Shown here: positions 8,934 through 11,900 of the stretch, piece by piece
Numbering within the stretch: the first letter of the stretch is position 1
Layout: each line of letters begins with the position of its first letter
From: a virus
Taxonomy: Duplodnaviria; Heunggongvirae; Uroviricota; Caudoviricetes
DNA length: 38,884 nucleotides
Virus record (IMG/VR): IMGVR_UViG_2728369182_000009
Reading direction: 5' to 3' (one strand)
Program-made: the position numbers

Positions 8934-11900
8934 TAAATAACCCCGCTCTTACACATTCCAGCCCTGAAAAAGGGCATCAAATTAAACCACACCTATGGTG
9001 TATGCATTTATTTGCATACATTCAATCAATTGTTATCTAAGGAAATACTTACATATGGTTCGTGCAAACAAACGCAACGAGGCTCTACGAATCGAGAGTG
9101 CGTTGCTTAACAAAATCGCAATGCTTGGAACTGAGAAGACAGCGGAAGCTGTGGGCGTTGATAAGTCGCAGATCAGCAGGTGGAAGAGGGACTGGATTCC
9201 AAAGTTCTCAATGCTGCTTGCTGTTCTTGAATGGGGGGTCGTTGACGACGACATGGCTCGATTGGCGCGACAAGTTGCTGCGATTCTCACCAATAAAAAA
9301 CGCCCGGCGGCAACCGAGCGTTCTGATCAAATACAAATGGAATTTTAACAACATCCAACGAGGTAATTATATGCGAAACAAAGGCTTTAATCCACCTGAT
9401 ACACACAAAGAAGCTAAGCGTTTGCGCTTCCTTCGTTCCATTGATGAAAGAACTCAAATCTCTTTTGTGAAAGTTGCCAGAACTGAGCTTCTGAAGGCTG
9501 AGGCGAGGGCGTTGCTCTCGTCTCTACCAAAAGAGGAGGGATATACGTTCATTCCAAACGCATTTCTGGAAAAGCTTCTCAAAGAAGACATATCCGTAAG
9601 TCAGTTTAACGATGTTCTTAAGGTCTTTCGTCAAGGCAGGTAGTTATGAGCAATACAGCAAAAATCTACGATTTCAGCGCCGCACACGAGCGCAGGAGCA
9701 ACAGGATGGAGAACCAGAAAACTGGTTACATTCCGTTGTACCGGAGCATTCTGAAACAGTCATGGGCGAAAGATGTTTATCTTCGCACCCTGTGGGAAAA
9801 CCTTCTCCTGAATGCCGCCAGAAAGCCATACAAAGCGAATTTCAAAGGTCATGAATGGCATCTGCAACCCGGTCAACTGGTTGTGACAGCAGCTGATTTA
9901 GGTCTTCAGTTATGCGACAGGCATGGCAAGCCGGCAAGCCGTGATCAGGTTGAGCGGATGCTTCAGGTTTTTGTGAAAGAGGGGATGATCTCCATTGATG
10001 GGGAGAAGCAAAAAGGTCGTGTGATAACCATCACAAATTACCATGAATATGCTCAAAAAATGGACAGTTCACCCGCACATGAAGCCGCACAAACAACCGC
10101 ACATGATGCCGCACATGACGAAGCCAGTAATGGCGCGGCTTTCAGCGCACATACCGCACATGAAAGCGCACATGAAGCCGCACAAACAACCGCACATCAT
10201 GAACAAGAAGGTATTAACAAGAATATAAATAATACCCCCCTACCCCCCAATGGGGGAGGCGATGGGCAGGTTAAACCTGAACGTCGCAAGGCAGAACGAA
10301 TCGACTACGAATCCTTCCTGAACGCCTACAACACCGAAGTCGGTGACAGACTTCCGCATGCTGTTGCGGTCAACGAGAAACGCAAACGCCGCCTGAAGAA
10401 AATCATCCCGCAACTGAAAACGCCAAACGTGGACGGTTTCAGAGCGTATGTCAGGGCGTTTGTGCATCAGGCCAAGCCGTTTTACTTCGGAGACAACGAC
10501 ACTGGCTGGACGGCAGATTTTGATTACCTGCTGAGGGAAGATTCGTTAACGGGAGTACGGGAAGGGAAGTTTGCAGACAGGGGGATTGCATGAGACAGGA
10601 TATCGAAGCGAGCGTTATCGGTGGCCTGCTGATTGGTGGATTAACTCCAACCGCCAGTGACGTTCTTGCAACGCTGGAGCCGGAAGCGTTTTCAATTCCG
10701 CTCTACCGGAAAGCCTTCGAGGTTATCCGCAAGCAGGCGCGAAACAGAAACCTAATCGACGCGCTGATGGTTGCCGAGGCGTGCGGAGAGGAGCATTTCA
10801 CGTCAATCCTGATGACCAGCAAAAACTGCCCGAGCGCCGCAAACCTGAAGGGATATGCCGGAATGGTCGCGGATAACTATCACCGCCGTCTGGTGCTGGA
10901 AATCATGGATGAAATGCGTGAACCAATTCAGAGCGGAACCATCGACGCATCGAGTCAGGCGATGGATGAGCTTGTAAAGCGTCTCTCAGCCATCAGAAAG
11001 CCCCGTGACGAGGTAAAACCTGTACGGTTAGGGGAAATCATTACTGACTACACTGACACGCTTGACAGGCGTCTGAGGAACGGAGAAGAGTCAGATACCC
11101 TGAAGACCGGAATCGAAGAACTTGATGCCATCACCGGAGGGATGAACGCGGAAGACCTGGTGATAATCGCTGCTCGTCCTGGTATGGGTAAAGCAATGGC
11201 GCTAAGCGAAGGGATTTTACTTGCAGATGGCACCTGGACTACTCACGGAGAAGTCAAAATTGGCGATCGCATCGCGTCAATAGACGGGCTTCCTTCGGAG
11301 GTAATTGGCGTCTTCCCGCAAGGGAAGAAATTCACATATTTAGTCACCTTTGAAGACGGACGTAGCGTGAAATGTGCCGACAACCACTTATGGGAAATTT
11401 CATCATCAAGATTTACTGGTAAACGCGTTGTTGATACTGATGCGCTGGCTGGGATGCTACAAAAAACACGTTATCAGGGAAGAATAAGAGTGCCATCCTT
11501 GACCGGAGACTTTGGTAAAAATATTCCCCTTGATGGTTGGGTTATTGGGGCTCTACTTGGTGACGGTTCGTTGATAAAAGGCATCAAATTCACCAACTCG
11601 GAAGAATATGTCCTGAGCCGCATGAGTGATGCAATTGCACCACTGCGACTGGTTAAGGTAGGAGAGAATGATTATTTGATAAGCAACAAAAAAGGCCAGA
11701 AGAACCCACTATTGGACAAACTACGTGGCATTGGGATGATCGGGAAAGGTGCGTCCGAGAAGGAAATCCCAGCAGAAATTTTTAGTGCTAGCAAAGAAAT
11801 ACGTACCGGTGTTTTAACTGGCCTTCTCGAGACAGATGGCTGGGTTGAGAAGTCCGGATGCATCCGCTTTAGTTCATCCAGTCAGAAATTAGCTAAAGGA

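What the first reader, a model, noticed from the sequence alone, without database searches (positions are those of the whole stretch)
10074..10260. Iteron-type replication origin embedded in the O-like gene
Nine CGCACA units occur with about 12-bp phasing, including a perfect 31-bp direct repeat 93 bp apart, followed by an AT-rich tract. The array encodes a His/Ala-rich low-complexity linker in the initiator and produces a repetitive spurious ORF in another frame (10043-10228).
Basis: seen in the sequence. Interest (0 to 1): 0.4.

Follow-up and report, generated by a model that had tools for sequence, protein, structure and literature searches.

The report
Replication origin inside phage initiator gene
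The repeats are almost certainly this phage's replication origin, written into the linker-coding part of its own initiator gene as in lambda, P22 and phage L; it is an ordinary kind of element with a repeat sequence no record annotates and a conserved central motif that is unexplained.

Summary
There are nine CGCACA units (4 + 5, mostly 12-bp phased), a perfect 31-bp repeat 93 bp apart, and an adjacent AT-rich tract that is the least stable 40-mer in the gene. All of it lies in the linker-coding part of a Phage_rep_O-family initiator gene (9646-10593), upstream of a DnaB-type helicase gene.

The origin reading is strongly supported by comparison, but no experiment was possible.
- The array sits at the position of the origin annotated in P22 gene 18. 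It has the architecture of the putative origin annotated in phage L.
- In relatives chosen by protein motif, the 8-bp unit core changes with the type of N-terminal winged-helix domain. The central motif and the AT-rich tract stay the same.
- A synonymous A/G difference in the core tracks an Asp/His switch at residue 100, at the start of the predicted recognition helix, in 203 of 203 sequences.
- The encoded peptide is variable and predicted disordered.

Verdict: a new member of a known kind. Unexpectedly, the central CCAGTAATGGCGCGG motif also sits between other, unrelated repeats next to several kinds of phage replication genes, often in non-coding DNA. Its role is unknown.

The parts
9646..10593 (+). 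O-like replication initiator gene (315 aa); an alternative start at 9706 gives 295 aa
   Evidence: ORF. Pfam Phage_rep_O matches aa 20-132 at E 3.4e-15. phrog_345 'replication initiation O-like' matches at E 2e-99.
9706..10065 (+). Coding region of the N-terminal winged-helix-like domain (aa 21-140). The predicted recognition helix is aa 99-111; Asp100 is encoded at 9943-9945.
   Evidence: AlphaFold2 model with pLDDT 70-85: H44-57, strands 63-80, H82-88, H99-111, wing strands 115-129. Residues that discriminate repeat types are listed.
10073..10120 (+). Iteron cluster A: four 12-bp units (CCGCACATGAAG, CCGCACAAACAA, CCGCACATGATG, CCGCACATGACG)
10124..10144 (+). Conserved central motif CCAGTAATGGCGCGGCTTTCA between the two clusters; function unknown
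   Evidence: Unique in the window. Conserved across all iteron types, including phage L and non-coding arrays.
10145..10201 (+). Iteron cluster B: five units (GCGCACATA, CCGCACATGAAA, GCGCACATGAAG, CCGCACAAACAA, CCGCACATCATG)
10198..10234 (+). AT-rich tract (about 22% G+C), the candidate DNA-unwinding element; it also holds the mosaic recombination joint at 10219-10229
   Evidence: Least stable 40-mer of the gene starts at 10194. Composition. BLAST module boundaries fall at query positions 574 and 584. The tract is nearly invariant in Klebsiella and Yersinia relatives.
10233..10258 (+). TACCCCCC x2 followed by the inverted repeat CCCCC-AAT-GGGGG (10244-10256); this is the right-hand palindrome of the origin and belongs to the C-terminal module
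   Evidence: period-8 repeat at 10233-10248. The same element lies inside the annotated P22 rep_origin and in HK97-type genes.
10259..10593 (+). Coding region of the C-terminal domain of the initiator, the presumed helicase-recruiting module
   Evidence: Shared at about 95% identity with ST104, mEp213, HK446 and BTP1, whose next gene is annotated as a DnaB-type helicase (as replication protein P in HK446). Helical in the model.
10590..12983 (+). DnaB-like replicative helicase gene, the partner of the initiator; it carries an intein-like insertion at 11193-12209
   Evidence: Pfam DnaB and DnaB_C plus LAGLIDADG and Hint hits. Alignment with the 458-aa JEP4 helicase defines the insertion.
10043..10228 (+). 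61-aa ORF in another reading frame; a by-product of the repeats, not a gene
   Evidence: Listed. Not conserved in 24 relatives.

Best explanation
Window 10073-10258 is the phage's origin of theta replication, written into the linker-coding part of its own initiator gene.

**Proposed mechanism**
1. The N-terminal winged-helix domain of the O-like protein (aa ~21-137) binds nine closely packed sites. Each has an 8-bp core, (C/G)CGCACA(T/A), and a 4-bp variable tail. They form two clusters (4 + 5) around a conserved central motif.
2. The resulting nucleoprotein complex destabilises the adjacent ~37-bp AT-rich tract.
3. The C-terminal domain brings in the phage's own DnaB-type helicase, encoded by the next gene, near the C5-AAT-G5 palindrome.

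**Shown here:** the anatomy; positional and architectural equivalence with the annotated P22 and phage L origins; DNA-level conservation of the core despite a variable, predicted-disordered peptide; co-variation of the core with the N-domain type; and the modular mosaic.

**Inferred:** binding itself, monomer stoichiometry, melting, helicase recruitment and the start of synthesis.
For: **Position**
- The P22 RefSeq record annotates a rep_origin inside gene 18. It covers four 20-bp iterons, an AT-rich tract and the CCCCCTTACCCCCTAAAGGGGG palindrome.
- The window has the same palindrome and the same C-domain type. Its array sits where the P22 and HK97-type iterons sit.

**Architecture**
- The putative origin annotated in phage L (MW013503, 31650-31726) reads: 3 units, CACCAGTAATGACGCGGCT, 3 units, AT-rich tract, palindrome. 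PMC8022706 proposes that lambda, P22 and L each bind different iterons inside their initiator genes.

**Co-variation**
- 38 loci were picked by protein motif only; L130 was added by exact-protein look-up. The 35 whose downstream DNA was read, plus L130, share the layout: cluster, central motif, cluster, AT-rich tract.
- The unit core follows the N-domain type:

| N-domain type | Unit core |
|---|---|
| A | CCGCACA |
| B | CCGCGCA / CCGAGCA |
| ~45% identical to the window | CAYSCGATGAAC |
| ~43% identical to the window | AGGTAACAAA |
| Sodalis locus (L158) | CCGATACAC |

**DNA-level selection**
- Units were sliced by anchors, not by the motif. Core positions 2-6 are invariant in 50 of 50 type-A units, while positions 9-12 are near random.
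- Position 5 is the third base of an Ala codon. It is A in 50 of 50 type-A units and G in 105 of 106 type-B units.

**One residue against one base**
- Residue 100 is Asp in every CCGCACA array and His in every CCGCGCA array: 8/8 and 17/17 in genome loci, 85/85 and 93/93 in viral contigs.
- Among 95 unique N-domains, a neighbour-joining tree needs at least 4 Asp/His changes.
- Residue 100 opens the predicted recognition helix, aa 99-111.

**Other support**
- The linker, aa 138-217, has pLDDT below 50, mostly 22-33.
- The N-domain and array travel together and join lambda-type C-domains with P, or DnaB-helicase-type C-domains. The joint lies in the AT-rich tract.
- The AT-rich tract is the least stable 40-mer of the gene.
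- The same CCGCACA arrays with a related central motif occur in non-coding DNA in other phages.
Against: - No binding or origin-activity data exist for this element, and none could be generated here.
- The units are short, direct and 9-12 bp apart. The well-studied lambda and P22 iterons are about 19-20 bp, dyad-symmetric and present in four copies, so the stoichiometry and geometry of the complex are unknown.
- Natural alleles range from 3 units without the central motif (284-aa proteins) to more than 15 units. Array length is therefore loosely constrained, and part of the structure reflects slippage or unequal recombination.
- The recognition-helix residue and the array lie only about 130 bp apart. 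Physical linkage contributes to their perfect association.
- Arrays with the same CCGCACA core sit next to primase-helicase genes in loci where no homologue of the O N-domain was found. The core alone does not prove which protein binds it.
Confidence: 0.8

Rival explanations
1. The repeats are only a low-complexity, disordered His/Ala-rich protein linker that grew by replication slippage. The DNA repeats would have no function of their own.
For: The region is predicted disordered. Copy number changes in steps of 4 and 31 aa among near-identical proteins. The array lies wholly inside a coding region.
Against: - The peptide is not conserved, but the DNA core is. The codon before the core encodes P, A, T or S, yet it always ends in C.
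- The Ala codon is always GCA in type A and always GCG in type B.
- The variable 4-bp tails show that the units are not simply being homogenised.
- The core switches completely with the N-domain type.
- CCGCACA arrays with a related central motif occur in non-coding DNA.
Confidence: 0.04
2. The array is a set of initiator-binding sites that serves control rather than initiation, for example titration, handcuffing or autoregulation of the O-like protein. DNA synthesis would start at another place.
For: Iterons of plasmids and of lambda also act in copy control and in inhibition by extra origin copies (PMC3349717). Array length varies naturally.
Against: - The array is directly joined to the most easily melted 40-mer of the gene, and to the same palindrome that lies within the annotated P22 origin.
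- No second cluster of the core exists in the window.
- No promoter-like site lies nearby for it to regulate.
Confidence: 0.08
3. The CCGCACA units, the central motif or both are recognised by some other protein (host-encoded, or another phage protein) and not by the N-terminal domain of the O-like protein.
For: Arrays of the same core lie 3' of Toprim + DUF5906 primase-helicase genes in Stenotrophomonas phage S1 and related high-GC contigs; the contigs also carry a related central motif. No homologue of the O N-domain was detected in those contigs. The central motif does not depend on iteron type.
Against: For the units, the core changes with the N-domain type and with residue 100 of its predicted recognition helix, without exception. 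For the central motif this rival remains open, and I think it likely.
Confidence: 0.06

Closest known systems
Putative origin of Salmonella phage L inside gene 18 (GenBank MW013503, rep_origin 31650-31726; PMC8022706)
   Same: Same architecture: two clusters of short direct repeats inside the initiator gene, separated by the same central motif (L: CCAGTAATGACGCGGCT; window: CCAGTAATGGCGCGGCT), followed by an AT-rich tract and a palindrome. The next gene is a DnaB-like helicase.
   Different: The unit is the 11-bp TGTCCAACGGA, 3 + 3 copies, against 12-bp units with core CCGCACAT, 4 + 5 copies. The initiators are only 22% identical. The C-domain and palindrome types differ. The L origin is itself only predicted.
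Origin of Salmonella phage P22 inside gene 18, and the HK97-type origin in ST104, mEp213 and HK446
   Same: Same position in the gene. The C-terminal domain module is ~95% identical in the HK97-type phages and ~67% in P22, the CCCCC..GGGGG palindrome is the same, and the AT-rich junction is equivalent. The partner is a DnaB-type helicase.
   Different: Four iterons of about 18-20 bp with internal dyad symmetry, spaced 20, 24 and 23 bp apart. There is no central motif, and the N-terminal domain is different.
ori-lambda in gene O
   Same: The initiator belongs to the same Pfam family. The origin lies in the linker-coding region and consists of iterons, an AT-rich tract and a palindrome. The N-domain travels with the iterons, and the C-domain specifies the partner. 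The lambda immunity region lies directly upstream in this window.
   Different: Lambda has four iterons of about 19-20 bp. Its C-domain works with P, a loader of the host DnaB, rather than with a phage-encoded helicase. It has no central motif (the lambda details are from established knowledge and PMC8022706).
Satellite phage P4 ori and crr (type 1 repeats TGTTCACC, which established knowledge assigns to the alpha primase-helicase)
   Same: Short 8-bp repeats are packed 9-11 bp apart in direct and inverted sets. crr lies directly 3' of the primase-helicase gene, as the non-coding CCGCACA arrays do in phage S1-like contigs.
   Different: The initiator class is different, the element is not inside a coding linker, and the central motif is absent.

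Membership tests
In-gene iteron origin of lambdoid phages (lambda O / P22 gp18 / phage L gp18 type) | Lies inside the initiator gene, between the regions coding for the N- and C-terminal domains | tested here: met
   The array encodes aa 143-185 of the 315-aa ORF. The N-domain is aa 21-137 and the C-domain aa 218-306 in the model.
In-gene iteron origin of lambdoid phages (lambda O / P22 gp18 / phage L gp18 type) | The host gene encodes a Phage_rep_O-family initiator and is followed by its helicase or helicase-loader gene | tested here: met
   Pfam PF04492 at E 3.4e-15. The next ORF has DnaB and DnaB_C domains.
In-gene iteron origin of lambdoid phages (lambda O / P22 gp18 / phage L gp18 type) | Several direct repeats followed by an AT-rich tract and a palindrome | tested here: met
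   Nine units, an AT-rich tract at 10198-10234 and a palindrome at 10244-10256.
In-gene iteron origin of lambdoid phages (lambda O / P22 gp18 / phage L gp18 type) | The repeat sequence is specific to the N-terminal domain and changes with it | tested here: met
   Five repeat types match five N-domain types. Asp/His at residue 100 matches A/G at core position 5 in 203 of 203 sequences.
In-gene iteron origin of lambdoid phages (lambda O / P22 gp18 / phage L gp18 type) | The initiator binds the repeats | not testable with these tools
   Needs EMSA or footprinting.
In-gene iteron origin of lambdoid phages (lambda O / P22 gp18 / phage L gp18 type) | The fragment supports replication when the phage replication proteins are supplied | not testable with these tools
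   Needs a plasmid replication assay or replication-start mapping.
Canonical lambda/P22 sub-type (four dyad-symmetric iterons of about 19-20 bp) | Four repeats of about 19-20 bp with internal dyad symmetry, spaced 20-24 bp apart | tested here: not met
   The units are 12 bp (one of 9 bp), direct and without dyad symmetry, in 4 + 5 copies with a central motif. Compare P22 and HK97-type.
Phage L sub-type (two clusters of short direct units around the CCAGTAATG(G/A)CGCGG motif) | Two clusters of 11-12-bp direct units that flank the conserved central motif and are followed by an AT-rich tract | tested here: met
   Window sequence. Phage L. The protein-selected loci whose arrays were read (35 of the 38), plus L130. 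Motif alignment.

The most novel reading that the evidence does not exclude
The 20-25-bp motif in the middle of the array (CCAGTAAYGGCGCGG-NTTYNAG, window 10124-10144) may be a core element of replication origins that does not depend on the initiator and that the literature I could search does not describe.

- It sits between iterons of at least a dozen unrelated sequences, in coding and non-coding DNA.
- It lies next to or inside genes for O-like initiators, SF3 primase-helicases, Toprim-DUF927 primases, AAA_25 helicases and VapE-like proteins, in contigs of about 42-70% G+C.
- It would then be read by something shared rather than by the phage-specific initiator. One possibility is a host factor. 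Another is a fixed priming or start site: the bottom strand contains CTG, the trinucleotide at which E. coli DnaG starts primers. That link is from memory and is speculative.
Probability: 0.35. Interest if true: 0.75.

Novelty: new member of a known kind. Interest (0 to 1): 0.5.

Why it matters
- **Annotation.** This replication module is common. It occurs in 281 of 5,426 complete E. coli genomes, in a large set of Stx2a-converting phages, and in CUS-3, Kapi1, JEP4 and HF4s. Where a feature is annotated there it reads only 'replication protein' or similar; the Stx2a-converting phage records list none. Naming the origin and its 8-bp recognition core gives a concrete, testable cis element for work on Shiga-toxin phage replication, for phage-derived replicons and for incompatibility or exclusion between prophages.
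- **Protein-DNA recognition.** The natural Asp100/His100 to A/G pairing is a ready-made specificity-swap experiment for a winged-helix initiator.
- **The central motif.** If it proves functional, it would point to a step of origin firing shared by phages and satellites that use quite different initiators.

Tried and rejected
- **Single-protein genome scan.** Scanning genome contigs with the N-domain alone found nothing. An alignment-based scan worked.
- **Solved structures.** The PDB sequence search gave no match. Foldseek on the AlphaFold2 model gave only non-significant hits (E >= 0.06). Most were winged-helix regulators, so the fold class is only suggested.
- **O N-domain in the high-GC contigs.** A profile of 35 N-domains found nothing in them. 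I therefore could not link the non-coding CCGCACA arrays to an O-like protein.
- **Central motif in well-studied origins.** It is absent from P4 ori and crr and from all of N15. I also compared it by eye, from memory, with the DnaA, IHF, Fis, LexA and CRP consensus sequences and found no match.
- **Literature and RNA families.** A text search for the motif found no relevant paper. Rfam found no RNA family in 9300-10700. No promoter-like site was found there.
- **Spacer as an inverted iteron.** GGCGCGG resembles the reverse complement of CCGCGCA. I rejected this because the motif stays the same in arrays with entirely different iterons.
- **P0078.** The DNA encoding it could not be retrieved.
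- **Other-frame ORF.** ORF 10043-10228 was rejected as a gene.
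Full report
**Observation**

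- CGCACA occurs nine times on the + strand between 10074 and 10196, with spacings of 12, 12, 12, 36, 9, 12, 12 and 12 bp. The whole 38.9-kb window holds 25 copies, which is the chance expectation, so the clustering is the signal.
- Tandem Repeats Finder calls two period-12 arrays.
- 10074-10104 and 10167-10197 are identical 31-mers 93 bp apart.
- The tract that follows is about 22% G+C. The 40-mer starting at 10194 is the least stable duplex in the gene. Only 0.17% of all 40-mers in the window are less stable.
- The array lies in ORF 9646-10593 and encodes PAHEAAQTTAHDAAHDEASNGAAFSAHTAHESAHEAAQTTAHH.
- The other-frame ORF 10043-10228 exists but is broken or altered in relatives, so it is a by-product.

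**Context**

- The ORF is a Phage_rep_O-family initiator (Pfam E 3.4e-15; phrog_345). The next ORF is a DnaB-type helicase.
- Upstream, 7900-9344 is 99.7% identical to lambda cI-cro-cII. Homology to lambda stops at the end of cII, so the replication module is a non-lambda mosaic piece.
- The same initiator gene, at 97-98% identity and with the same array length, is found in JEP4, HF4s, Gally, CUS-3, Kapi1, TL-2011a and about 50 Stx2a-converting phages. It also occurs in 281 of 5,426 complete E. coli genomes.
- No record inspected annotates an origin there.

**Position and architecture**

BLAST splits the gene into two modules.
- Query positions 1-584 cover the N-domain, the array and the AT-rich tract. 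This part is shared at 75-80% identity with Klebsiella and Yersinia phages. Their genes continue into a lambda-type C-domain and are followed by a P-like gene.
- Query positions 574-948 cover the C-domain. This part is shared at about 95% identity with ST104, mEp213, HK446 and BTP1, which have a different N-terminal half.
- The joint is therefore at 10219-10229, inside the AT-rich tract.

Comparison with annotated origins:
- The P22 RefSeq record annotates a rep_origin inside gene 18. It covers four 20-bp iterons, an AT-rich tract and CCCCCTTACCCCCTAAAGGGGG.
- HK97-type genes carry four different 18-bp iterons at the same coordinates, followed by the same AT-rich tract and palindrome.
- The window carries the same palindrome (10233-10258), and its array sits where those iterons sit.
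- Phage L (MW013503) annotates a putative origin with this layout: three TGTCCAACGGA units, CACCAGTAATGACGCGGCT, three units, an AT-rich tract and a palindrome. That is the window's layout, including the central motif.
- The phage L paper states that lambda, P22 and L appear to bind different iterons inside their initiator genes (PMC8022706).

**Co-variation**

I collected 38 genome loci using two peptide motifs of the N-domain, which makes the sample blind to the DNA repeats. One further locus, L130, came from an exact-protein look-up. The 35 loci whose downstream DNA was read, plus L130, have the same layout: cluster, central motif, cluster, AT-rich tract. The 12-bp unit follows the N-domain type:

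| N-domain | Unit core |
|---|---|
| Type A: 68-99% identical within the group (the window's type) | CCGCACA |
| Type B: on average 72% identical to type A, the ranges overlapping | CCGCGCA / CCGAGCA |
| ~45% identical to the window | CA(C/T)(C/G)CGATGAAC |
| ~43% identical (Xenorhabdus, Photorhabdus, Pantoea) | AGGTAACAAA |
| Sodalis locus L158 | CCGATACAC |

- **Slicing by anchors.** I cut units by flanking anchors rather than by the motif. Type-A positions 2-6 are invariant in 50 of 50 units, position 7 is A in 96% and position 8 is T in 86%. Positions 9-12 are near random.
- **A synonymous site.** Position 5 is the third base of an Ala codon. It is A in 50 of 50 type-A units and G in 105 of 106 type-B units. 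Neighbouring codons change amino acid (P, A, T or S; H or Q) while keeping the core bases. The constraint is therefore on the DNA, not on the peptide.
- **One residue against one base.** Residue 100 is Asp with every CCGCACA array and His with every CCGCGCA array: 25 of 25 genome loci and 178 of 178 viral contigs. Among 95 unique N-domains, a neighbour-joining tree needs at least four Asp/His changes.
- **Structure.** The AlphaFold2 model gives a winged-helix-like N-domain at pLDDT 70-85. Residue 100 lies at the start of helix 99-111, the expected recognition helix. The linker, aa 138-217, is predicted disordered. Fold matches are weak and mostly winged-helix regulators.
- **Caveats.** The Asp-with-A and His-with-G pairing is chemically reasonable, but that is my inference. 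Residue 100 and the array are only about 130 bp apart, so physical linkage contributes to the association.

**Copy-number variation**

- Near-identical proteins differ in steps of 4 aa (12 bp) and 31 aa (93 bp). The range runs from 3 units without the central motif to four 31-aa blocks.
- The 4 + 5 form is the one present in all phage records and in the largest protein clusters.

**Beyond the finding**

- A scan for three phased CCGCACA units found about 85 loci with this N-domain directly upstream. It also found high-GC contigs in which arrays with the same core and a related central motif are non-coding.
- In several of those contigs (L095, L123, L128) two arrays lie in inverted orientation about 170 bp apart. 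In L128, the one read in detail, they flank a relatively AT-rich ~85 bp directly 3' of a Toprim + DUF5906 primase-helicase gene.
- Stenotrophomonas phage S1 has the same arrangement of CCGCACA arrays, with a less similar spacer, under an annotated 'hypothetical protein'.
- No homologue of the O N-domain was found in the high-GC contigs.
- A scan for CCAGTAAYGGCGCGG found the central motif between many unrelated repeats: TCTACC, CGCCCCCT, GTACCGAATCGGTAC, GTGACA, TTGACAC, TGAACCAAC, CGTCGAACC, GGACAC and others.
- Those arrays lie next to or inside genes for SF3 helicases, AAA_25 helicases, a Toprim-DUF927 primase, a VapE-like protein or an O-like protein.
- P4 and N15 lack the motif. I found no description of it in the searchable literature and no Rfam family. 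Its function is unexplained.

**Verdict**

The element is best filed as a new member of the known class of in-gene iteron origins, of the phage L sub-type. It has a recognition core that no inspected record annotates and a likely specificity-determining residue. Initiator binding and origin activity remain to be shown.

Noticed in passing
window 10124-10144; also L291 31676-31700, L130 2952-2975, and L292-L387: The 'spacer' between the two iteron clusters (CCAGTAATGGCGCGGCTTTCA) is a conserved motif. It lies at the centre of many unrelated iteron arrays, coding and non-coding, next to several classes of replication genes. Its function is unknown, and I found no description of it in the searchable literature.
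   Followed up: partly
L128 4395-4685; L290 (Stenotrophomonas phage S1, NC_011589) 2471-2733; L035, L079, L095, L115, L123: Non-coding CCGCACA arrays lie directly 3' of Toprim + DUF5906 primase-helicase genes; in L095, L123 and L128 two arrays sit inverted about 170 bp apart, and in L128 they flank a relatively AT-rich ~85 bp. This is probably the origin of these phages. In phage S1 it is annotated as 'gp2 hypothetical protein'. No homologue of the O N-domain was found in the high-GC contigs searched.
   Followed up: partly
window 11193-12209, inside ORF 10590-12983: The DnaB-like helicase carries an exact 339-aa insertion relative to the otherwise about 99.6% identical JEP4 helicase. It splits the Walker A motif (GMGK|T), has Hint and LAGLIDADG hits, starts with Ala, ends in HN and is followed by Thr. 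This looks like an intein with a homing endonuclease and a non-canonical first residue.
   Followed up: partly
window 9371-9643: A 90-aa ORF between cII and the initiator gene has only a sub-threshold Phage_rep_O match (E 0.038). The Kapi1 record notes the same motif. It could be a small second winged-helix protein of the replication module.
   Followed up: partly
window 7900-9344: The immunity region (cI, cro, cII) is 99.7% identical to phage lambda. Homology ends at the end of cII, where the non-lambda replication module begins.
   Followed up: yes
window 10219-10229: The crossover point between N-terminal and C-terminal initiator modules lies in an 11-bp stretch of the AT-rich tract that different module types share. 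At least four different C-terminal modules are joined there in relatives: the DnaB-helicase type, the lambda/P type, the phage L type and the L153 type.
   Followed up: partly
window 30421-30489: A run of 69 N (masked or unknown bases) lies in the window.
   Followed up: no
NZ_CP158430.1 110536-110776 (hit H191): The best of the sampled E. coli genome matches listed for the origin region (98.8% identity) lies on a 178.9-kb plasmid record rather than on a chromosome.
   Followed up: no
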